A stretch of 64,000 nucleotides of DNA from a phage. The position numbers and the translations under genes are program-made. The stretch lies in sequence record OZ413489.1; one strand, 5' to 3'. How positions within the stretch are numbered: position 1 is the stretch's first letter; each line of letters starts with the position of its first letter. The notes below the pieces were generated by a model. It did no database searches and was not told the origin of the DNA. It saw only the letters and a program-made list of their open reading frames with translations. Positions 1 to 63,580 of the stretch are shown one piece after another.

Positions 1-258
1 CTCTGGGATGCCAACCCAGGTCTTAAGGGGCGCAAAGAGGATCTGGAGAAATTCTGGGAAGCAACAGGTAAGAAGTTTATCTACTCTTTTGATGGTCATG
101 CTATCTGGACCCGATCTAAACACTCTTTACTTAATGCATACCAACAAAATGGCGGTGCATCGTTGTGTGACTTAGTTGGAATACTCATGCACCACCAGAT
201 GGTGAAGCGTGGGTGGTACGATGAAGGTGTTCGTCGTATTATTTATTACCATAAATAA
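1..258 (+). CDS. hypothetical protein (5'-truncated at window edge)
   Basis: Open frame 1 from window start to TAA at 256-258; same strand as downstream array. Confidence 0.5.
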   Translation, partial: LWDANPGLKGRKEDLEKFWEATGKKFIYSFDGHAIWTRSKHSLLNAYQQNGGASLCDLVGILMHHQMVKRGWYDEGVRRIIYYHK

Positions 259-282
259 CATTGTGGCTTCATAGAGTAATCT

Positions 283-441
283 ATGTCGAATAACCTCTTT
301 AACTGCGGGAAGCCTAAACCTTATGGCAAGGTAATCCGCAACGAAGCGCTCAAAAGAGCGAACGCTCAGAGGCCATTCCGAAAGGAAGTAGACCAGCAAG
401 TGCGGTCGAAATGGGAGGATTCCTGTGGTTGCTTATCATAG
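283..441 (+). CDS. small Cys-containing hypothetical protein (52 aa)
   Basis: ATG 283, weak RBS; not in ORF track (<60 aa). Confidence 0.25.
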   Translation: MSNNLFNCGKPKPYGKVIRNEALKRANAQRPFRKEVDQQVRSKWEDSCGCLS

Positions 442-525
442 GAATATGAGATGGTCCGATCCTACGTGAAAACGTATGGCTATGCACGTAATGGTGCGGG
501 GTAGCTTAACGACCTACCTGAACTA

Positions 526-5295: not shown

Positions 5296-5874
5296 ATGAA
5301 ATGCAAACGTTGTGGAGAGGACAAGGAGGCCTCCGACTTCTACACCAGTAACAAATCAACGTGCAAAGAGTGTTGCAAGAAGGCCAGCAGGGAGGCTGAC
5401 CAATTTGCTAAAGACTCTTCAGAAAAAGGTGTAATACGTGTGTTGTACAAGGCTCAAAAGTGCAACAGCAAGCAAAGAGGTCACCCTCCTCCGACTTACA
5501 CCAAAAAAGAGTTTAAGGAGTGGCTATACCTTAACGGTTACAAAGAGTTGTATGATCAGTGGGTAGCCAGCGGATACGACAAAAGGAAAAAGCCTTCTTG
5601 TGACAGGATAGATGATTTCAAAGGGTACTCTTTTGATAATATCCGTTTAACGACTTGGGGAGAAAATAAAGACAAGCAGACAGAGGATATTCTGTTACAT
5701 AGAAGCACCAGCGGTAGACGGTGCAAAAATGTAAGGAGGTTGGACATGAATGGTAACGTTCTTAAAGAATGGGTATCTCACAACTCTTGTAGCAGAGAAA
5801 CCGGAATATATATTGGTTACTACATTCATGAAAAAATTCCAGCTCCAGATGGATACTTATACGAATACTTTTAA
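5296..5874 (+). CDS. Cys-rich protein with HNH_3-like domain (DRID in place of DHID)
   Basis: N-terminal CxxC...CxxCC; SCDRIDDFKGYSFDNIRLTTWGENK resembles HNH_3 but catalytic His position is Arg. Confidence 0.45.
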   Translation: MKCKRCGEDKEASDFYTSNKSTCKECCKKASREADQFAKDSSEKGVIRVLYKAQKCNSKQRGHPPPTYTKKEFKEWLYLNGYKELYDQWVASGYDKRKKPSCDRIDDFKGYSFDNIRLTTWGENKDKQTEDILLHRSTSGRRCKNVRRLDMNGNVLKEWVSHNSCSRETGIYIGYYIHEKIPAPDGYLYEYF

Positions 5875-5936: not shown

Positions 5937-6353
5937 ATGACATTAGAAGATATCATTGTTAAACCTGAGAACTATGACCAATACAACCTGTCAACTCAAT
6001 CTGTAGACCTTGGATGCGCCACAGTTAGTGCGTGGCTGGTTAATGGAAAAGAGCTGGACAAGTGCTTAGAAGCTCACATGTCTGTTAACAAGTTTCTGGA
6101 TGAAAATACTCACTGGCTTGAGGGTGCTGGAGTATATGCTTCATGGTTGGAGAGCATGGGCTTTGACTATCAATCTGATGAAGGGTGGTGGAGCTATCTG
6201 GCTATCTGTCCAGAAACACTGCAATGCTTCATGAAATACTCTGAAGATCTTGAGTACCGAGCGGTGGTTGATAGTGCTATTGCCCGTTATAGCCGTAAAC
6301 CTTTTTCCCATGACATTAAAACTGTGGAAGAATTTGTTGAAGTTTTCTGTTGA
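5937..6353 (+). CDS. hypothetical protein
   Basis: 138-aa ORF. Confidence 0.6.
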   Translation: MTLEDIIVKPENYDQYNLSTQSVDLGCATVSAWLVNGKELDKCLEAHMSVNKFLDENTHWLEGAGVYASWLESMGFDYQSDEGWWSYLAICPETLQCFMKYSEDLEYRAVVDSAIARYSRKPFSHDIKTVEEFVEVFC

Positions 6354-6449
6354 CACAGGTTGAAAGGTGTGCAATTATAACTTCATAAAACGGGAGGACG
6401 CGATGAACGAAGAAAACTGGGATGTATAACTAACAGGAGACCACTGCCC

Positions 6450-6647
6450 ATGATTTATCGAATCCGTGTAAGAGAAGATGCACCAGGCTGTTACTTTGAC
6501 TGGCGTGGGTGGTGGTTTCTCCACCCGATGGATGGACTCACAGATAGAATGCTGGATGCTGCCCTTTATACAGATACCGACATAGAATATAATCTTTATC
6601 TGAAGGACGGTATAGATAACGGCCTATTTGAAGCAATTCCTGTGTAA
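6450..6647 (+). CDS. hypothetical protein
   Basis: 65-aa ORF. Confidence 0.5.
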   Translation: MIYRIRVREDAPGCYFDWRGWWFLHPMDGLTDRMLDAALYTDTDIEYNLYLKDGIDNGLFEAIPV

Positions 6648-6715: not shown

Positions 6716-7135
6716 ATGATCTATGAAATGCCAAAATTGATCCGTGACGATGCCCAAAACCACACCATTATTATGGGTAAACGCATGAATATCCTTTGCC
6801 GTAACGATTTCTGTGGTGGAGAATACGTTGCAGACTACTTCGGTGAGAATGGTAAACACCCTGTTCAGTTCTTCCTTGACCATGAGGATAACATTATCTG
6901 GGAGTTTGAAACTGAAGATATCCGCAACCTCTTCATCTTCCTCGGTGTCAAGGTTAAGGCCAATTTCGCAGAAGGTGAGTGCGACGATTGTGGATTTTAT
7001 GAGGTGACAGACTTTTATCTCCCGAGTGGCAAGAACCTTTACTATGAGAGTCACTTCGGAAACACCAACATGCCTCAAAGCTGGGAAGAATTTTTCAGTA
7101 TCGTAGAAGAGGAGCTGGCATACCGTGATTATTGA
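6716..7135 (+). CDS. hypothetical protein
   Basis: 139-aa ORF, overlaps start of macro-domain gene (operon). Confidence 0.6.
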   Translation: MIYEMPKLIRDDAQNHTIIMGKRMNILCRNDFCGGEYVADYFGENGKHPVQFFLDHEDNIIWEFETEDIRNLFIFLGVKVKANFAEGECDDCGFYEVTDFYLPSGKNLYYESHFGNTNMPQSWEEFFSIVEEELAYRDY

Positions 7136-7583
7136 TACTGTAAAGGGAGATTTAATCTCCCTTTTTAAGAGCGGTGCTGGTCACCTGATCCACGGTTGTA
7201 ACTGCTTCCACACAATGGGTAAAGGTATAGCAAAACAGATTGCCCGTGAGTTCCCTCAAGCATTGGCAGCCGACAAAGAGACGAGACACGGTTGCCTAAG
7301 TAAACTGGGTGCGTTCTCCCGATGGGAGCACTTATCTCCGATAGGTATTGTCTACGGAATCAATCTGTATACTCAGTTCTACCCAGGGCCTAATGCTGAA
7401 TATTTCTCAATCCTGAAAGGCTTTGAGCTAGTCAATGAGGTATTCAAGGGATCGACTTTACCATTCTACATCCCTAAGATCGGGTGCGGCATAGGCGGTT
7501 TGAAGTGGGAGCACGTAGAGGACGTTATTAACCTCGCCACTTTTGATATAGATATTATCGTGGTGGAGTACAAAGAGTGTTGA
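7125..7583 (+). CDS. macro-domain protein (ADP-ribose binding / O-acetyl-ADP-ribose deacetylase family)
   Basis: GHLIHGCNCFHTMGKGIAKQI and IGCGIGG match macro-domain signatures; GTG start. Confidence 0.7.
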   Translation: MIIDTVKGDLISLFKSGAGHLIHGCNCFHTMGKGIAKQIAREFPQALAADKETRHGCLSKLGAFSRWEHLSPIGIVYGINLYTQFYPGPNAEYFSILKGFELVNEVFKGSTLPFYIPKIGCGIGGLKWEHVEDVINLATFDIDIIVVEYKEC

Positions 7584-7609
7584 CAGCTGGCTTTTGAGAT
7601 GGTATAGTC
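7580..7609 (+). promoter_or_regulatory. sigma70-like promoter (ttgaca-18-tatagt)
   Basis: Hexamers at 7580-7585 and 7604-7609. Confidence 0.5.
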
Positions 7610-17946: not shown

Positions 17947-18210
17947 ATGAAACGTCTTGATCAGCTCAAATTAGTTCAATATATGGCTTATCGTGTTCTT
18001 GAAGTCCAGAAAGGTAGCAAAAAAGAGGTTTGCGAGAAAGCTTATAAGATCTTCACTCGCAAAAAAGATGACTGGATGCTACGCCAGACTAAAAAGGCTG
18101 ACATCTTGGGGTACCTGGAAGAAGAGATCCGCCTTGAAGAGCAAGAAGAGATCCGCCGTAGTGAGGCAGATTATCAGGCAGCTTGGGAAAACTGGATGAG
18201 CAACAAATAA
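17947..18210 (+). CDS. hypothetical protein
   Basis: 87-aa ORF, RBS aagaggtaaa. Confidence 0.6.
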   Translation: MKRLDQLKLVQYMAYRVLEVQKGSKKEVCEKAYKIFTRKKDDWMLRQTKKADILGYLEEEIRLEEQEEIRRSEADYQAAWENWMSNK

Positions 18211-18228
18211 TACAACAAGGTGCACGGT

Positions 18229-18256
18229 CAGGGGCTTAAAGCCCCTTTCTTTTTGT
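18229..18256 (+). terminator. intrinsic terminator closing the + strand block
   Basis: aggggc-ttaaa-gcccct followed by ttctttttg. Confidence 0.65.
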
Positions 18257-18859
18257 CTCCTCTTTTCCTACCACAAATGGCCCCGCCTGGCAAATGGAAT
18301 AATCAACAAGCCAGCAATTAACCCCACTGTACAAACATACATATAAAATAACTATTGCATAATTTTTCATTGTGTGGTAGCAGTGCCATTTTTACACGTT
18401 TTTCCTTCCAAAATTGCACGTAATGCAGCATTTGCACAAAATTTAACCTGATGCATATCTTCAATAGCTTGTCAACAACTAAAAATCTTTATAAGTCATA
18501 CACTTACATAACTACAAAAACGTTTTCTACGTGAAAAATCGAGTATAACTATAGCCGCCAGATCTCAGAATTTACGTACGCTCGCCATTCTATAGCCTGC
18601 TAAGCATTTATTCCAACCATAGAATAACGGAATAGTCAATACCTGCATAAAATAATTATTCGTGTAAACTGCATAACATAAATCGGCCCAGGTGTCAACA
18701 TTTTTCGTAAACAGTCTGGAATTGTCACGTTAGGTTACCATAAGCAGAGAAATCTTTAGTCGTCTAATGTTTACTGTACATTACTATACTGACTGGAATC
18801 ATTAGATGACTAAGAGAAAGATAAGAAATAATTAATAATGTAATTATTTTACCTGTAAC

Positions 18860-19125
18860 AATAAGGCAACTATGCAAACGAATGGCATGGCGCGACGGAG
18901 TCGCGACATAATATAAAAGCAGTAACCATCACCCCCGTGATAGTTTGTCTGCAAACTATTAATCAGATCATAGTTGCCTTGTATTTAGTTAATCATGACA
19001 TGACAAGCAAGGCAACTATAGATCTGCTAATAGTTGCCCTGCTTTTATATTATGTCATGCTAATTATAATCAGTGCGATTATTGTCATGTATAATTATTG
19101 TCATGCAAACGAATGGCATGGCTGA
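18860..19125. repeat. array of aaggcaactat motifs in both orientations plus duplicated gcaaacgaatggcatggc
   Basis: Copies near 18863, 18970 (inverted), 19009, 19031 (inverted variant); 18-mer at 18874 and 19106; cgcgac-ggag-tcgcg palindrome. Confidence 0.6.
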
Positions 19126-19132
19126 TTATCGG

Positions 19133-19230
19133 TGTGTAAACAGTCAATCATGTAAATGGTTAGCATGTGAACAATCAGGAATGTAAACAATCCAGTGTGT
19201 AAACTAATAGGTGTGTAAAAGTGTCATGTT
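19133..19230. repeat. iteron-like array of six tgtaaac-type direct repeats
   Basis: gtgtgtaaacag, atgtaaatgg, atgtgaacaa, aatgtaaacaa, gtgtgtaaact, gtgtgtaaaag at 10-20 bp spacing. Confidence 0.55.
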
Positions 19231-19364
19231 GTGTCAGTTAGGTCACATTATGTCAGACAAGTTTTTCTCCTCTTTGTCAAGTGCTGCATGAAAAATTTAC
19301 AAGCTTGTATGGTAGCATTTTTGCGGCCCTGTTTACATTCAGTAATGTATGTATAATCCTTGTT

Positions 19365-19527
19365 GTGTGGGCGTTTAGACGTCTAGACGGTTGGAAGTCC
19401 ACAGGTCAATATCTAATCTATCGGCTGCTAACTATATCCCACACATGTGTGGGCGTTTAGACGTCTAGACGGTTGGAAGTCCACAGGTCAATATCTAATC
19501 TATCGGCTGCTAACTATATCCCACACA
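19365..19527 (+). repeat. perfect tandem duplication of an 81-bp unit (82-bp period)
   Basis: Unit gtgtgggcg...tagacgtcta...cccacaca twice; 7-bp terminal inverted repeat gtgtggg/cccacac; tataat hexamer at 19351-19356. Confidence 0.8.
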
Positions 19528-19789
19528 AATAGTAAGAAATATGATTGTTATATGCGTAAACTGTAACTCATGTTATCAATCCCTGTATGGATCGCCAGTG
19601 GTGCGCATAATAGGTATTATGTTAAATTGCCCGTAATGATAACAGTTCTCACAATGATAGGTATTCTCATTCATCCACACAAAATAGGTTGCAAATGTTG
19701 TGCCACTGTGTGAACGGCCTGGCCTATTAATTTCTCTCACTGCCTCGATATTTGAGAATTGTTATAAGAATGAGAAGTATTCCCATTCC

Positions 19790-20130
19790 GTCCGCCTGGC
19801 AGCACTCCTGTAGGTCCTGCAAGGACTCTAGCTGAAAGCTAGACCCTTCGGGCCTCCCTGTAGGTCAGGTCAAAATCGTGGTAGAATTGGGCCTGTTCAG
19901 ATATTTCTGGCTGACTCTTCAGGTCTGTGTGGGAAAAGCCAACCTCTCCGGCGGGGCAGGGGGTCATGACGGGAAAATTGCAGGTCAATTAAAAAATTTA
20001 CGTGGTGTATGAAGCGCTCTTCAGGTAAGGCATGTATTATGGGATGAAACCCTCTTCAGGCAATGATATTTGTGGGTGTGATATTTGCTGGAAAGCCAGA
20101 TATGACGGGACTCCCGGCGGGGATGGGGTA
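19790..20130. repeat. GC-rich segment with recurring short motifs
   Basis: ctcttcagg x3 (plus one at 20465), ccggcgggg x2, cctgtaggtc x2, atgacggg x2. Confidence 0.55.
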
Positions 20131-20823
20131 GTACAGACAGGGAAAATATGAGAATGTAGTTGGGGAAATTGATCAGACAGGTAGAGTATGGAATATGTTA
20201 CAAGTATGTTAAATATGGAGGTTGAATATCTGTAGGATTTGTGTGTAAAATCAAAGACTTAAGGGGTGTTGTGGTATTTTCTATAAATAATTCAAGTTTA
20301 ATAGGCAATATTTGTCTCTATCCGCTTTGTGTGGTAAACAGATTCAGATTAGATTGGTTTACAAGTGTATACATAATATACAAATTAAAGATACAAGAAA
20401 CCCCCCTCCCCCTTCGGCTACCATTCACCTTTTCCTCTGACTGGTACTTAAACACTTATTCAGACTCTTCAGGTTATCACCCATATATCATATGGCAGTG
20501 ACTGGTGTCCTCCGGCCCCTCTTTCGTCACCCGTCCGCTTCGCCATGCTAATGCCATAGCCAATGGTTCGGTTGTTCACTCTGTTCACTCAGGTGTATCT
20601 CCATACCCCTTCAAACCGAAGAGAACAGAAAACCCGAATTACTCGGTAAAAGAAAAGAGAAGAACTTAATTTTATCAGGATAGGCAAGAATGTCAAGGCA
20701 TGACTGCTCACTAAACAAGCAAACAGTCATGTGTGGAAGGTAAGTGATTGTGGTGGTGGGAAATTTAGTTGAAAGATGTGTTATAGGTGCTCCCAGCACT
20801 TTAGCCGGGTAGCTAATTGTGTG

Positions 20824-55978: not shown

Positions 55979-56692
55979 TTAAATATACTCTGTTACATCC
56001 TTGAAGCTCGAAGGCTTCATGATCTTACCTTTACTGTCAAGGAATATGATAACTTTATTACCGTTGTAGAATTCTTCCTTAGCAACAAAACCTTCATATC
56101 GACCATCAAAGCGTCGTTCAAGATCTTTAATCTCCAACTCGATGAGTTGTTCAGCAGGCATATCTGCACTGGCACCGTGTGAATACCGTAGATGGTTGAC
56201 CCGTGCAAACTTGCTGTCATTCGATTTGAGAACCTTACGCATCATCCCGCACACATCGCCGCGAAGCTGGAACAGCAAAGCTGTTGACAACTCTGCTAAG
56301 CGGTAAGCGGATGCTCTTTGCTTAGAGGTGTTTTTCGCAGCGATCAGTGTATCATAGAACTCACCGATCTTGAACTTAAGACCTCGTGGATTATCAAACA
56401 GGTTTGACCACTTTTCGTGATTGTCATTAACAAGATAAGCGGCATAACTTGTGACAACGTGAAGATCGCAGGCCTCTTTTAGCAGGTGATCTCCACCATC
56501 CCCTTTCTCCAGCTCTTCCAAAACTTCATTGAACTCTTCCTCAATGAAGCTAAGCTGTAATTCGAACGGTATGTATGATTTTTTCACTTTAGCTGCCACA
56601 CGGTTCCAGTTTTCCACCCAGTTGGCAGACCAAAGGTAGTTTTCAGGTTGGGACAGTTTTTCCAGGTTGTCAATTAATTTGGTATTCAGCAT
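55979..56692 (-). CDS. hypothetical protein, possible MazG-like NTP pyrophosphohydrolase
   Basis: EEEFNEVLEELEKGD...LLKEACDL resembles the MazG EExxE...D pattern; weak. Confidence 0.35.
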   Translation of the reverse strand: MLNTKLIDNLEKLSQPENYLWSANWVENWNRVAAKVKKSYIPFELQLSFIEEEFNEVLEELEKGDGGDHLLKEACDLHVVTSYAAYLVNDNHEKWSNLFDNPRGLKFKIGEFYDTLIAAKNTSKQRASAYRLAELSTALLFQLRGDVCGMMRKVLKSNDSKFARVNHLRYSHGASADMPAEQLIELEIKDLERRFDGRYEGFVAKEEFYNGNKVIIFLDSKGKIMKPSSFKDVTEYI

Positions 56693-56705
56693 TAAAGGTC
56701 TCCTT

Positions 56706-57467
56706 TTAAAGTTCCATAAAGTTTTCTACGGTCTCAATGAATGTTTTATCAGAGAAGGCATCAACCGCACCGTTAAACCAAACTGGGATGCCGCGATCCT
56801 CATACTGGTAAATATCACTACGTGAAATGCCATTCTCCTCTAGATGCTGTGAGTCGTATTTATTAACGATCAGTAGTTTGGTTCCCTTATTGCAGGCAGG
56901 GAATAGCTCCCAGTTAAAATTGATAACTGTGTTGGAACACCCTACAAGGATAACCATATCATTGCTTGTAAGAGAAGTCAACAGGTCATACATGTCTGTA
57001 TACTTCGGAGCTACTTCTCCGAAGAACACCACATTAGGTTTAACCCAGGTATACTTTCCTGCATCTACCTCAGAGTATCCAATGTCCTTAATGACGTCAC
57101 TTCCTTCATCGTCCTCATAGACTATTTCTGGCAAATACCCGTGAACATGTAAAATATCTTCATGTTTTACACCAGCACGCTCCAGCAAATCATCTACATT
57201 GGTGGTAAGGTTGATCACACGACCAGACCAGCGGGAATACCACTCAGCGATCCGAAGATGTGCAAGGTTAGGCTCAACACCGCCTAGAGCTACACGACGT
57301 GCATTGTAAAAGTCATGCACCTTGTAGTAGTTCTTGGCAAAGGTGTGGATGTTGCACACCTCATCGATGCTGAAATTCTCCCACATTGCAGTGCTACCAG
57401 ATCGGAAAGTGGGAATACCAGATTCAGCGCTCAAACCAGCACCGGAGATAATAATCAGTCGTCGCAT
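56706..57467 (-). CDS. Sir2-family (sirtuin-like) NAD-dependent protein
   Basis: GAGLSAESGIPTFR, TTNVDDL and HG motifs match Sir2/CobB; no Zn-ribbon Cys pairs seen. Confidence 0.7.
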   Translation of the reverse strand: MRRLIIISGAGLSAESGIPTFRSGSTAMWENFSIDEVCNIHTFAKNYYKVHDFYNARRVALGGVEPNLAHLRIAEWYSRWSGRVINLTTNVDDLLERAGVKHEDILHVHGYLPEIVYEDDEGSDVIKDIGYSEVDAGKYTWVKPNVVFFGEVAPKYTDMYDLLTSLTSNDMVILVGCSNTVINFNWELFPACNKGTKLLIVNKYDSQHLEENGISRSDIYQYEDRGIPVWFNGAVDAFSDKTFIETVENFMEL

Positions 57468-57475
57468 AAGTGTCC

Positions 57476-57826
57476 TCAGTAGATGTTTTGTTTAATCTCT
57501 ATTCCAAACTTTTTAAACGAGTCAGCTGCAAGCATGAATTTACGAGCCGCTGATGGGTTAGAAGTATGCACGAAAATCTTCACGTTGTCAACTACAGGGG
57601 GCTTACCAAATACAAATTTTTCCTCCAACATAGATAGGCAATCGTACCCTTCGAACACCTCTCCAAGGTCGTTGTCCATGTGCCACTCAGAAACGCGTCT
57701 GTAGAGCTTTCCCCTATCGTTAATAAAATCTATAAACTCGGAGGAATTCTTTAGCCAAATAGCGTCTGGGAGCCCATAATTTGACGGATCTCTCAAGTCA
57801 TCCAGCCACACAATCAACTTCTTCAT
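57476..57826 (-). CDS. hypothetical protein
   Basis: 116-aa ORF between Sir2 and RNA ligase. Confidence 0.55.
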   Translation of the reverse strand: MKKLIVWLDDLRDPSNYGLPDAIWLKNSSEFIDFINDRGKLYRRVSEWHMDNDLGEVFEGYDCLSMLEEKFVFGKPPVVDNVKIFVHTSNPSAARKFMLAADSFKKFGIEIKQNIY

Positions 57827-58758
57827 TGCATATAGTTCTCGTTGTGGAAATAGTAATCAAGTATCTCACGGCGTTCCTGCTCCAGGAGGCAGTTCCACAC
57901 ATCTTCTGTGTAATTGTTACGAATGAAGTTTACCATGCCGTAAAACTCTTCGTCAACACGTTTAAAGATATCATCATCCCAAATCCTCCAAGCTTTACCC
58001 CTCATTACGGCCTTCCGTGCCAGGTAGTATGGAGACTTGATCTTCAGCTGCAGGTCATAAGGGTAGTAAGGCTTACGGATCATATACCCTTCGCCCCTTG
58101 TTTCTGCGGCTAATTCTTTTGCATAGCTGAACGGGATTTCACGCACAGTGTGAGGACGTTTTGCACCAAGGTATTTGGCAATCCCATCTAAAGCTGCTTC
58201 TGGTAGCATTATTCCAGAATCATTATATCTGCAACCTATCAAATATGCGCCATGGTCTTCTTGAACAATATGCGGATCTGAAGGGTGACAAATTTCAAAC
58301 ATGAATGTCATGTTTTCATTGCCCATAACCTTCTTGATAAGATCTAAATTACCACATTGCTCTTGGATGGTTTCCTTTGCAAGGTTACAATATGGAGAAT
58401 CAAGAGACCCGGTTGTTGAGAACAATAGGTCACCTTTATGAGATGATACCACACCAAGGAATCCGTTCTTTTTCTCTACCGCAGTCACAAGCTTATTGTC
58501 AGGCAGGTTGGTGGAGTTTTCTCCCAAGTTAAACACTTTTGTGAAGGGCCATGCCACAACATTTCCTTCATTACCTACAACAATGCCTCGACACTCCAGT
58601 AAACGAGGGGACAAATGCCATAAATTGTTGTAAAATACTTTTCTAGCATATTTATAGATCTTTAACCCAAGATCCGGGTAATATCTACTGGTTACAAGAC
58701 CTTTGTCAACTAGGTCGTCTGCATTAAAATACTTCATCATACGTTCCTCATTTGTCAT
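57823..58758 (-). CDS. RNA ligase, T4 RnlA (Rnl1)-like
   Basis: LLECRGIVVG...KVFNLGEN resembles T4 Rnl1 (ALECRGIMFE...FFNLNENP); nucleotidyltransferase motif EKKNG. Confidence 0.6.
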   Translation of the reverse strand: MTNEERMMKYFNADDLVDKGLVTSRYYPDLGLKIYKYARKVFYNNLWHLSPRLLECRGIVVGNEGNVVAWPFTKVFNLGENSTNLPDNKLVTAVEKKNGFLGVVSSHKGDLLFSTTGSLDSPYCNLAKETIQEQCGNLDLIKKVMGNENMTFMFEICHPSDPHIVQEDHGAYLIGCRYNDSGIMLPEAALDGIAKYLGAKRPHTVREIPFSYAKELAAETRGEGYMIRKPYYPYDLQLKIKSPYYLARKAVMRGKAWRIWDDDIFKRVDEEFYGMVNFIRNNYTEDVWNCLLEQERREILDYYFHNENYMQ

Positions 58759-62767: not shown

Positions 62768-62842
62768 GCCCTGTTAGCTTAGTGGATAAAGCAGCGGCCT
62801 TCTAAGCCGTTGACACTGGTTCGAGTCCAGTACGGGGTGCCA
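62768..62842 (+). tRNA. tRNA-Arg (anticodon UCU)
   Basis: Cloverleaf folded by hand; loop cttctaa; TTCGAGT T-loop; encoded CCA. Confidence 0.75.
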
Positions 62843-62846
62843 AATT

Positions 62847-62933
62847 GGGGAGTTATCCCGTAGAGGTAGCGGTGTAGACTGTAAATCTATTGTCATTGCG
62901 ACTCGGGTGGTTCGACTCCACCACTCCCCACCA
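62847..62933 (+). tRNA. tRNA-Tyr (anticodon GUA), long variable arm
   Basis: Perfect acceptor ggggagt/actcccc; loop ctgtaaa; encoded CCA. Confidence 0.75.
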
Positions 62934-63047
62934 AATTTATATTTTTAGATGCATAAATAATACAGATAATGGCATTGATATTTATCGTCGTTTATACTAG
63001 TCACTAACTGCTCGAAAATCAGTGTCATTATCAGTATAATTTATAAA

Positions 63048-63138
63048 GGAGGGTAGGGAGCAATGGTGCTCAAGCGGTCTTGAAAACCGTCCCGTTGAGG
63101 ATGACTCGATGATGGTTCGATTCCATTACTCTCCGCCA
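63048..63138 (+). tRNA. tRNA-Ser (anticodon UGA), long variable arm
   Basis: Anticodon arm gcggt-cttgaaa-accgt close to E. coli tRNA-Ser(UGA); encoded CCA. Confidence 0.7.
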
Positions 63139-63236
63139 CATTGTTGACCTTGTAATTAAGCGAAAGCCGGAAGCAGAACCGGATTATCAAATGTTACAGT
63201 CGTCATCGCCGACTAGCAACATGGTCAACATGCTGA

Positions 63237-63335
63237 GCTAGGTAAGCCCTTTGGCAAGGGCGAGGATTTTTAATCCTGAAAATAGACGAGGTAGTCGTTG
63301 AATACATAGGTGGTTCGATTCCATCACCTAGCACC
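63237..63335 (+). tRNA. tRNA-like gene with aberrant anticodon arm
   Basis: Acceptor gctaggt/acctagc, D-arm and T-arm fold; anticodon region is either a 5-nt loop or a 4-bp stem with loop tttttaa; 3' end is CC then T. Confidence 0.35.
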
Positions 63336-63340
63336 TTTTT

Positions 63341-63416
63341 GCTGATGTAGCACAATCGGTAGTGCAATTGATTTGTAATCAATAGGTTGTAGGTTCAAAT
63401 CCTGCCATCAGCACCA
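63341..63416 (+). tRNA. tRNA-Thr (anticodon UGU)
   Basis: Perfect acceptor gctgatg/catcagc; loop tttgtaa; encoded CCA. Confidence 0.8.
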
Positions 63417-63417
63417 A

Positions 63418-63492
63418 GGCCCTGTAGCTGGAAGGTTCAAGCAAGCGACTCATAATCGCCAGACGGTGGTTCAATTCCACCCAGGGCCACCA
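63418..63492 (+). tRNA. tRNA-Met (anticodon CAU; could be Ile-lysidine type)
   Basis: Perfect acceptor ggccctg/cagggcc; loop ctcataa; encoded CCA. Confidence 0.75.
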
Positions 63493-63503
63493 AATAGTAA
63501 ATA

Positions 63504-63580
63504 CTCCGCGTAGCTCAGCTTGGTAGAGCGCCTGATTTGGGATCAGGAGGTCGAGTGTTCGAATCACTTCGTGGAGACCA
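63504..63580 (+). tRNA. tRNA-Pro (anticodon UGG)
   Basis: Anticodon arm cctga-tttggga-tcagg; canonical D-arm; encoded CCA. Confidence 0.75.

What the first reader, a model, noticed from the sequence alone, without database searches (positions are those of the whole stretch)
7125..7583. Macro-domain protein in the early small-gene block
Macro domains bind or hydrolyse ADP-ribose derivatives. Together with the Sir2-like gene this implies the phage handles NAD+-derived metabolites. Such enzymes could reverse ADP-ribosylation or degrade ADP-ribose-derived signals, but this is speculative.
Basis: partly seen in the sequence, partly recalled or inferred. Interest (0 to 1): 0.45.

Follow-up and report, generated by a model that had tools for sequence, protein, structure and literature searches.

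The report
Phage enzyme that un-tags ADP-ribosylated DNA
The gene is a real, conserved macro-domain enzyme of an rV5-like E. coli phage, and it is the counterpart of the T4 gene tk.4/adfM, which lets T4 resist the bacterial DarTG2 defence; it most likely strips ADP-ribose off phage DNA, so it is an ordinary member of a recently characterised family.

Summary
Window 7125..7583 (+) is a 152-aa ORF with a conserved GTG start. It matches Pfam Macro above threshold and PHROG 335 at 4e-60, models at pLDDT 96.7, and is under purifying selection (dN/dS 0.11-0.28).

A 2025 preprint renamed Tk.4 AdfM because deleting it makes T4 sensitive to DarTG2. I therefore read this gene as an orphan, antitoxin-like hydrolase that removes DarT2-type ADP-ribose from thymidine in phage DNA. 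That activity is inferred, not tested.

The T4/rV5 clade has an invariant Gln where DarG, TARG1 and PhiKZ AdfM have the catalytic Lys. This matches SCO6735, where the Gln is essential.

The proposed link to Sir2 is not supported. Sir2 lies 49 kb away on the other strand, in an RNA-ligase/MazG repair cluster. T5 has that Sir2 but no macrodomain, and it is DarTG2-sensitive.

Verdict: new member of a known kind, modest interest.

The parts
7125..7583 (+). Macro-domain CDS of 152 aa (GTG start, TGA stop included). It is the Vequintavirus homologue of T4 Tk.4/AdfM.
7110..7114 (+). Shine-Dalgarno-like AGGAG, 10 nt upstream of the GTG start
   Evidence: Read directly from the sequence. The GTG start is conserved in six Vequintaviruses. 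It aligns with the ATG of the Krischvirus and T4 homologues.
7194..7202 (+). Codons for Gly24-Cys25-Asn26 of the H-G-C-N motif. Asn26 is invariant in the family.
   Evidence: Family alignment invariants. Asn26 aligns with SCO6735 Asn27, where N27S nearly abolishes activity (PMC9411070). The paper on PhiKZ AdfM mutated a conserved active-site asparagine, construct 'gp104 N23A' (PMC13309987); in alignment A3 the PhiKZ motif Asn falls in this column.
7374..7376 (+). Codon CAG for Gln84, invariant in the family. It occupies the position of the catalytic Lys of DarG and TARG1.
   Evidence: Alignment A3: Gln in the window protein, Krischvirus Tk.4, T4 Tk.4, BT1257 and SCO6735; Lys in M. tuberculosis DarG, E. 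coli DarG2, PhiKZ gp104 and TARG1. SCO6735 Q85A is inactive (PMC9411070).
7482..7499 (+). Codons for the G120-C-G-I-G-G125 loop, predicted to bind the ADP-ribose diphosphate
   Evidence: G120 is invariant; G122 and G125 are conserved in at least 90% of sequences. The stretch aligns with PRIGCGLAGG of SCO6735/BT1257 and PPLGCGNGG of DarG.
6716..7135 (+). Upstream ORF of 139 aa with unknown function. Its stop overlaps the macro start by 11 nt, so the two are probably co-transcribed and translationally coupled. A functional link is not shown.
   Evidence: ORF list. PHROG 8157, unknown function, 6.1e-62. No Pfam hit. Not related to T4 vs. 99% identical only to phage A6-1 and about 74% to other Vequintaviruses.
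6565..6593 (+). Nearest upstream sigma-70-like promoter candidate (TTTATA-17-TATAAT) for the 6716-7583 gene pair. A second candidate lies at 6350-6378.
   Evidence: Consensus scan only. Not evidence of function.
7580..7608 (+). Strong sigma-70-like promoter (TTGACA-17-TATAGT with TG) that starts within the stop codon of the macro gene. It probably drives the next small genes.
   Evidence: Consensus scan, 11 of 12 matches.

Best explanation
The gene encodes a stand-alone, single-domain macrodomain hydrolase. It is the Vequintavirus counterpart of T4 Tk.4/AdfM, an 'orphan antitoxin' that resembles the N-terminal half of the bacterial DarG antitoxin.

Proposed mechanism:
1. The gene is transcribed by host RNA polymerase from the block of small + strand genes.
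2. The enzyme binds the ADP-ribose that a host DarT2-type toxin attaches to thymidine in single-stranded phage DNA.
3. It cleaves the base-ribose bond, releasing ADP-ribose and restoring thymidine, so phage DNA replication can continue.

The active site is of the SCO6735 type, not the DarG type. Gln84 is held by Asn26 and positions the distal ribose. There is no catalytic lysine, so hydrolysis would be water-mediated.

Shown here: gene, fold, class, homology to Tk.4, conserved residues, purifying selection.
Shown by others: T4 lacking tk.4 is sensitive to DarTG2; SCO6735 and PhiKZ AdfM remove thymidine-linked ADP-ribose in vitro; the ORF at the matching position in Bas54, a phage of the same subfamily, is dispensable on E. 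coli K-12.
Inferred: this protein has the same substrate and the same role.
For: - Homology. The protein is 39% identical to T4 Tk.4 over the full length, E=5e-41. It is 69% identical to the Tk.4 of the T4-like Krischvirus Skers, which sits in the vs-tk.4-tk slot.
- Function of the homologue. T4 tk.4 was the single significant hit when a T4 transposon library was grown on DarTG2. A clean knockout sensitised T4, and the gene was renamed adfM (10.1101/2025.11.20.689424).
- Family membership. PHROG 335 contains the window protein (3.9e-60), T4 Tk.4 (1.3e-65), PhiKZ gp104 AdfM (8e-43) and E. coli DarG2 (4.6e-44). DarG is the only hit in PADLOC (9.5e-14) and in NCBIfam (5.9e-13), covering only the macro part of each model. 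Identity to the macro domain of the E. coli DarG2 used in those experiments is 29%, E=1e-11.
- Active site. His23, Asn26, Lys33 and Gln84 align with SCO6735 His24, Asn27, Lys34 and Gln85. In SCO6735 the Q85A, N27S and K34E mutants lose activity. The wild-type enzyme cleaves thymidine-linked ADP-ribose on DNA and rescues cells from DarT toxicity (PMC9411070).
- Class-wide activity. Reversal of thymidine ADP-ribosylation is described as a unifying activity of this macrodomain class. PhiKZ AdfM removes DarT2 marks in vitro (PMC13309987).
- Dispensability. The Bas54 ORF matching by position and size, bas54_0092, tolerated insertions at 31 of 31 TA sites on K-12.
- Natural contrast. T5 lacks any macrodomain and is DarTG2-sensitive.
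Against: - Nothing was measured for this protein or for any Vequintavirus. The HIDEN-SEQ study did not challenge its Bas54 library with DarTG2.
- The T4 evidence is genetic and comes from a preprint. No biochemistry is reported for the Gln-type phage clade.
- The protein lacks the catalytic Lys of DarG and DarG's C-terminal DarT-binding domain.
- It also lacks the extended Lys-rich mobile loop that SCO6735 uses for DNA binding.
- The tested darTG2 allele occurs in only 10 of 5426 complete E. coli genomes by nucleotide search. The macro gene is present in about 119 of 123 related phages. The selective pressure may therefore come from other or additional substrates.
- Enzymes of this class are promiscuous. 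Reported substrates include protein Glu-ADP-ribose, uracil-ADP-ribose on RNA and ADP-ribose-1''-phosphate.
Confidence: 0.6

Rival explanations
1. It is a broader or different de-ADP-ribosylase. It would remove ADP-ribose from proteins (Glu/Asp-linked, as TARG1 and SCO6735 do) or from RNA (uracil-linked or phosphate-linked). That would reverse modifications made by other host defence transferases or by phage transferases. DarT2 reversal would then be incidental or only one of several activities.
For: SCO6735 and TARG1 also hydrolyse protein ADP-ribosylation. TARG1, DarG and SCO6735 all reverse uracil ADP-ribosylation on RNA (PMC13036486). The family is found in 2717 phage records, while the tested darTG2 allele is in only 10 of 5426 E. 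coli genomes.
Against: The only phenotype known for a clade member is against DarTG2. SCO6735 was inactive on 2'-OH RNA ADP-ribosylation, and its activity on phosphate-linked marks is reported inconsistently within the same paper. No ADP-ribosyltransferase was found among the window ORFs scanned with Pfam.
Confidence: 0.17
2. It is an ADP-ribose-1''-phosphate phosphatase of the Poa1p type, as the GenBank label 'phosphatase' implies. It would clear the by-product of an NAD-dependent RNA 2'-phosphate removal step carried out by the phage's own Sir2/RNA-ligase repair module. This is the metabolic link the first reader suspected.
Against: The two loci are 49 kb apart on opposite strands. Iyer et al. 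note that this sirtuin type is not coupled to a Macro gene. T5 has the Sir2 without any macrodomain. The sampled macro hits are mostly T-even phages of about 165-170 kb, whereas the sampled Sir2 hits are not. To my knowledge T4 has no sirtuin (background knowledge, not tested here), yet its Tk.4 has a defence phenotype.
Confidence: 0.08
3. It hydrolyses or sequesters ADP-ribose-derived immune signals, such as Thoeris gcADPR or His-ADPR, and so blocks signalling defences.
For: Macro domains bind such signals in ThsA effectors. Iyer et al. argue that many phage Macro domains target soluble ADP-ribose derivatives.
Confidence: 0.06
4. It neutralises DarT2-like toxins mainly by binding them rather than by catalysis, or it is a non-catalytic ADP-ribose reader.
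For: A catalytically dead SCO6735 (Q85A) still inhibited DarT in vitro, more strongly than dead DarG or TARG1.
Against: The DarT-binding C-terminal domain of DarG is absent: the protein is 152 aa and matches only positions 2-143 of the 338-position DarG model. The invariant Asn26, Gln84 and glycine loop indicate selection on catalysis.
Confidence: 0.04

Closest known systems
T4 Tk.4 / AdfM (anti-DarT factor Macrodomain; bioRxiv 10.1101/2025.11.20.689424)
   Same: Both are single-domain proteins of about 150 aa. They are 39% identical over the full length, E=5e-41, and fall in the same PHROG 335. They share the family residues HGCNCFHTMG, NLYTQ and IG-G-G..W, including Gln at the catalytic column. 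Both are dispensable on E. coli K-12.
   Different: The genomic context differs. T4 tk.4 lies between vs and tk; here the gene follows an unrelated 139-aa ORF in the block downstream of the DNA polymerase gene. The anti-DarTG2 phenotype has been shown only for T4.
SCO6735 (Streptomyces coelicolor) and BT1257 (PDB 5E3B, 2FG1/2AFC)
   Different: Identity is only 26-27%. The phage clade lacks the 6-residue mobile-loop insertion that carries SCO6735 Lys89/Lys94, and it has Gly where SCO6735 has Val25. SCO6735 and BT1257 are cellular proteins, not phage proteins.
DarG, antitoxin of the DarTG2 toxin-antitoxin defence system (PDB 5M3I, 5M31, 7OMU)
   Different: There is no C-terminal DarT-binding domain and no adjacent darT. 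The score of 48.8 bits is far below the NCBIfam cut-off of 250. The catalytic Lys (FPTK) is replaced by Gln (LYTQ).
PhiKZ gp104 AdfM (chimallivirus; PMC13309987)
   Same: Both are phage-encoded stand-alone macrodomains in PHROG 335. PhiKZ AdfM removes DarT2 ADP-ribose from DNA in vitro, and mutation of a conserved active-site Asn (construct N23A) reduces its activity.
   Different: Identity is only about 21%. PhiKZ AdfM keeps the DarG-type Lys (FPTKDNW) and is imported into the phage nucleus. So two different macrodomain lineages carry the name AdfM.
Human TARG1/OARD1 (PDB 4J5R, 2LGR)
   Different: The TARG1 Lys84/Asp125 dyad corresponds to Gln84/Gly124 here.
Yeast Poa1p, ADP-ribose-1''-phosphate phosphatase (PDB 6LFQ)
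   Different: Sequence similarity is confined to the two ends in the pairwise search. There is no evidence for phosphatase activity in the phage clade.

Membership tests
Macro domain superfamily (Pfam PF01661) | HMM score above the curated gathering threshold | tested here: met
   28.3 bits against a threshold of 22, E=1.8e-6
Macro domain superfamily (Pfam PF01661) | Three-layer alpha/beta macro fold | tested here: met
ALC1/TARG1-like macrodomain class (TARG1, DarG, SCO6735, Poa1p) | Closest structures and profiles belong to this class rather than to the MacroD, PARG or macroH2A classes | tested here: met
T4 Tk.4 / AdfM clade (Gln-type phage macrodomains in PHROG 335) | Full-length sequence homology to T4 Tk.4 | tested here: met
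   39% identity over 153 columns, E=5e-41. Both match PHROG 335 at 1e-60 or better
T4 Tk.4 / AdfM clade (Gln-type phage macrodomains in PHROG 335) | Clade-invariant residues G24, N26, G34, A36, N80, Q84, G120 | tested here: met
   All are present in the window protein and in T4 Tk.4
T4 Tk.4 / AdfM clade (Gln-type phage macrodomains in PHROG 335) | Required for plating on DarTG2-carrying hosts | not testable with these tools
   Shown only for T4. The Bas54 library was not challenged with DarTG2
DarG antitoxin (NCBIfam NF048014, equivalog) | Score above the curated cut-off of 250 bits, which requires the two-domain architecture with the C-terminal DarT-binding domain | tested here: not met
   48.8 bits. 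Only model positions 2-143 of 338 are matched, and the protein is 152 aa
DarG antitoxin (NCBIfam NF048014, equivalog) | Catalytic lysine (Lys80 in T. aquaticus DarG) in the FPTK motif | tested here: not met
   Gln84 occupies that column
DarG antitoxin (NCBIfam NF048014, equivalog) | Encoded next to a darT toxin gene | tested here: not met
   The flanking ORFs are small proteins of unknown function. The upstream 139-aa ORF has no Pfam hit and matches only an unknown-function PHROG; the downstream 66-aa ORF matches only PHROG 15268, also of unknown function
SCO6735/BT1257 subclass | Gln at the catalytic column, held by a conserved Asn, with a preceding His | tested here: met
   His23, Asn26 and Gln84 align with SCO6735 His24, Asn27 and Gln85
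SCO6735/BT1257 subclass | Extended mobile loop (about 5 residues longer than in DarG/TARG1) carrying Lys89/Lys94 | tested here: not met
   There is a 6-column gap in the window, Skers and T4 proteins relative to SCO6735/BT1257
TARG1 | Lys84/Asp125 catalytic dyad | tested here: not met
   The aligned residues are Gln84 and Gly124
Poa1p-type ADP-ribose-1''-phosphate phosphatase | Phosphatase activity on ADP-ribose-1''-phosphate | not testable with these tools
Sirtuin-Macro operon (SirTM-type or toxin-antitoxin-type pairing) | Macro gene adjacent to and co-oriented with the sirtuin gene | tested here: not met
   Sir2 is at 56706..57467 on the minus strand, 49 kb away, within an RNA ligase/MazG cluster. 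T5 has the Sir2 without a macro gene

The most novel reading that the evidence does not exclude
The Tk.4-like phage macrodomains, this one included, would form a distinct lysine-free, short-loop branch of the TARG1/DarG class. They would act as broad erasers of pyrimidine-base ADP-ribosylation on both DNA and RNA, or of a host transferase not yet identified, rather than as dedicated anti-DarTG2 factors. This would explain why the gene is kept in about 2700 sequenced phages although the tested darTG2 allele is in only 10 of 5426 E. coli genomes.
Probability: 0.2. Interest if true: 0.5.

Novelty: new member of a known kind. Interest (0 to 1): 0.27.

Why it matters
If the inference is right, rV5-like phages, which are used in therapeutic cocktails, carry a built-in counter to DarTG2-type DNA ADP-ribosylation. 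That would help predict their host range on strains with this defence.

The analysis also makes two small points about the family.

First, two unrelated macrodomain lineages now share the name AdfM. PhiKZ gp104 has the DarG-type lysine. T4 Tk.4 and the rV5 proteins have an invariant glutamine, as SCO6735 does. A lysine-independent mechanism should therefore be expected for the widespread enterobacterial-phage clade.

Second, the Sir2 gene of these phages belongs to a separate RNA-repair module. It should not be read as a partner of the macro gene.

Tried and rejected
- Sir2-macro partnership. Rejected on distance and strand, on the published neighbourhood analysis and on the T5 counter-example.
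- Upstream ORF 6716..7135 as a T4 vs homologue or a toxin partner. There is no similarity to vs (E=0.059), no Pfam hit and only an unknown-function PHROG match.
- A companion NADAR (AdfN-like, anti-DarTG1) gene in the window. None was found among 30 ORFs scanned with Pfam, and the first 25 nt of the Bas60 NADAR gene (taken from a primer) do not occur in the window. The rest of the phage genome lies outside the window, so absence is not established.
- Bona fide DarG membership. Rejected: 48.8 bits against a cut-off of 250, no C-terminal domain, no Lys.
- Chromosomal context of a bacterial homologue (Pelagimonas, P0065). The gene stands alone among housekeeping genes, so the context is uninformative.
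- First structure-prediction attempt. It was repeated without that row.
- Prevalence of darTG2 in E. coli. This was measured by nucleotide search with one allele only, so divergent DarTG2 variants are not counted.

Full report
**1. The observation**

The six-frame ORF list contains an ORF at exactly 7125..7583 on the + strand, 152 aa, starting with GTG. An AGGAG lies 10 nt upstream. The GTG overlaps the TGA of the preceding ORF (6716..7135) by 11 nt.

The protein matches Pfam Macro above the curated threshold (28.3 bits against 22). It matches PHROG 335 over its whole length at E=3.9e-60.

The same CDS is annotated in related genomes, with the same GTG start and the same overlap. Among six Vequintavirus copies, dN/dS is 0.11-0.28 for the pairs that carry any non-synonymous change. 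The gene is real and under purifying selection.

**2. What the window is**

Nucleotide search places the window in the Vequintavirinae, the rV5-like myoviruses of E. coli. The closest record is phage MaxTheCat/Bas57, at 96.5% identity over 3 kb.

The gene lies in a long run of short + strand ORFs downstream of the DNA polymerase gene. Strong sigma-70-like promoters are interspersed in this run.

**3. Which macrodomain it is**

By sequence, by profile and by fold, the nearest solved structures all belong to the ALC1/TARG1-like class:

DarG is the only hit in the PADLOC defence library (9.5e-14) and in NCBIfam (48.8 bits). Only the N-terminal macro half of each model is matched, and the score is far below the NCBIfam DarG cut-off of 250 bits. 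The protein is therefore an 'orphan' DarG-like macrodomain. It has no DarT-binding domain and no neighbouring toxin gene.

**4. The decisive relative**

A tblastn search finds homologues in 2717 phage records. The T-even copies lie next to vs, which is the position of T4 tk.4.

A direct comparison with T4 Tk.4 gives 39% identity over the full length, E=5e-41. The Tk.4 of the T4-like Krischvirus Skers, which sits in the vs-tk.4-tk slot, is 69% identical to the window protein. It links the two groups and suggests lateral exchange. The original rV5 record already calls the gene 'Tk.4 conserved hypothetical protein'.

A 2025 preprint (10.1101/2025.11.20.689424) grew a T4 transposon library on a DarTG2-expressing host. 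It found tk.4 as the single significant hit. A clean knockout sensitised T4, and the authors renamed the gene adfM.

That study's supplementary tables list, for the Vequintavirus Bas54, a 459-nt ORF (bas54_0092) that overlaps a 426-nt upstream ORF by 11 nt. I identify it with the macro gene by position and size, not by sequence. It tolerated insertions at 31 of 31 TA sites on E. coli K-12. This is what is expected of an accessory counter-defence gene. The Bas54 library was not challenged with DarTG2.

**5. Mechanism**

DarT2 ADP-ribosylates thymidine in single-stranded DNA and blocks phage replication. DarG-type macrodomains remove the mark. A separate paper shows that a chimallivirus macrodomain, PhiKZ gp104, also named AdfM, removes DarT2 marks in vitro and neutralises DarT2 (PMC13309987).

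Aligning all of these proteins shows a split.

| Protein | Residue at the catalytic column |
|---|---|
| PhiKZ gp104, M. tuberculosis DarG, E. coli DarG2, TARG1 | Lys |
| Window protein, Krischvirus Tk.4, T4 Tk.4, and all 59 homologues aligned with the window protein | Gln (Gln84) |
| BT1257, SCO6735 | Gln |

For SCO6735, Hlousek-Kasun et al. (PMC9411070) showed the following:
- The enzyme cleaves thymidine-linked ADP-ribose from DNA and rescues cells from DarT toxicity.
- Q85A is inactive.
- N27S is nearly inactive.
- K34E impairs activity on DNA.

The window protein has His23, Asn26, Lys33 and Gln84 at the equivalent positions. It lacks the SCO6735 mobile-loop insertion and has Gly where SCO6735 has Val25.

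I therefore expect a lysine-independent, water-mediated cleavage in which Gln84, held by Asn26, positions the distal ribose. This step is inferred from SCO6735, not shown.

**6. The Sir2 link**

A Sir2 gene does exist in the window (56706..57467, minus strand; PF02146 E=5.5e-27; PHROG 2162). It lies 49 kb away on the other strand, between a MazG-like pyrophosphohydrolase and an Rnl1-type RNA ligase.

Iyer et al. 2022 describe this same arrangement for phage V5. They call it a predicted NAD-dependent RNA-repair module and state that this sirtuin type is not coupled to a Macro gene.

T5 provides a natural control. It has a 57%-identical Sir2, but four macrodomain queries find nothing in its genome (best E=0.15). 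T5 is also the DarTG2-sensitive test phage in both DarTG studies.

Sir2 homologues occur in 1007 phage records and macro homologues in 2717. In the sampled hit rows, Sir2 falls mostly in genomes of 105-150 kb and the macro mostly in T-even genomes of 165-170 kb.

A metabolic hand-off remains conceivable, with Sir2 producing ADP-ribose phosphate and the macro acting as a Poa1p-like phosphatase. It has no positional or phyletic support.

**7. Caveats**

- Nothing has been measured for this protein.
- The T4 result is genetic and comes from a preprint.
- The enzyme class is promiscuous. Reported substrates include protein Glu-ADP-ribose, uracil-ADP-ribose on RNA and ADP-ribose-1''-phosphate.
- The darTG2 allele used experimentally lies in a P2-like prophage region. 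It is found in only 10 of 5426 complete E. coli genomes by nucleotide search. The universal retention of the gene in these phages may therefore reflect further targets.

**8. Verdict**

- Observation: confirmed.
- Interpretation: partly supported. The macro domain and ADP-ribosylation reversal hold; the partnership with Sir2 does not.
- Best explanation: an AdfM-type, anti-DarT2 DNA ADP-ribosylglycohydrolase with a Gln-type active site, confidence about 0.6.
- Novelty: a new member of a known kind.
- Interest: modest.

Noticed in passing
window 243-478 (+): A group I catalytic intron (Rfam RF00028, 64.7 bits against a threshold of 50). It lies where the DNA polymerase gene of the close relative MaxTheCat is annotated as joined from two pieces.
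   Followed up: partly
window 5296-5874 (+): A 192-aa ORF matching PHROG 1035 (endonuclease VII/HNH-like, 2.7e-32). It is absent at this position in MaxTheCat and ECP2309. Bas54 has an ORF annotated 'putative homing endonuclease' (bas54_0088) at the same position. It is probably a free-standing homing endonuclease insertion.
   Followed up: partly
window about 18200-20200, repeat at 19364-19527: An ORF-poor, AT-rich stretch with a perfect tandem duplication of 82 nt (19364-19445 and 19446-19527) and several inverted repeats. It seems to correspond to the roughly 2-kb intergenic region of Bas54 in which the HIDEN-SEQ study recovered no transposon insertions, so it may be an origin or another essential cis element.
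   Followed up: partly
window 62768-63580 (+), especially 63237-63335: A cluster of seven tRNA genes. One is an unusually long (99 nt) tRNA-like gene that ARAGORN calls with a 4-nt anticodon (atcc). Rfam scores it as tRNA only weakly (35.5 bits).
   Followed up: no
window 55979-58758 (-): The Sir2 gene (56706..57467) is flanked by a MazG-like nucleotide pyrophosphohydrolase (55979..56692) and an Rnl1-type RNA ligase (57823..58758). This is the rV5-type predicted NAD-dependent RNA-repair neighbourhood of Iyer et al. 2022. T5 has a 57%-identical Sir2.
   Followed up: partly
L008 3001-3456 (Escherichia phage Skers, Krischvirus): The Tk.4 of this T4-like phage, in the conserved vs-tk.4-tk slot, is 69% identical to the Vequintavirus protein but far less similar to T4's own Tk.4. 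This points to lateral exchange of the gene between two phage families.
   Followed up: partly
window 6716-7135 (+): The upstream ORF, which overlaps the macro start, is 99% identical only to phage A6-1 and about 74% identical to other Vequintaviruses. The macro gene itself is 92-97% identical to copies in other Vequintaviruses. There is therefore a mosaic boundary at or near the gene junction. The ORF has CxxxxC and CxxC motifs and no known function.
   Followed up: partly
L004 3622-5179 (E. coli O22:H8 RM10809-3): The darTG2 operon used in the published phage-defence experiments lies in a P2-like prophage region, next to a replication endonuclease gene and a DinI-like gene. It occurs in only 10 of 5426 complete E. 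coli genomes by nucleotide search.
   Followed up: partly
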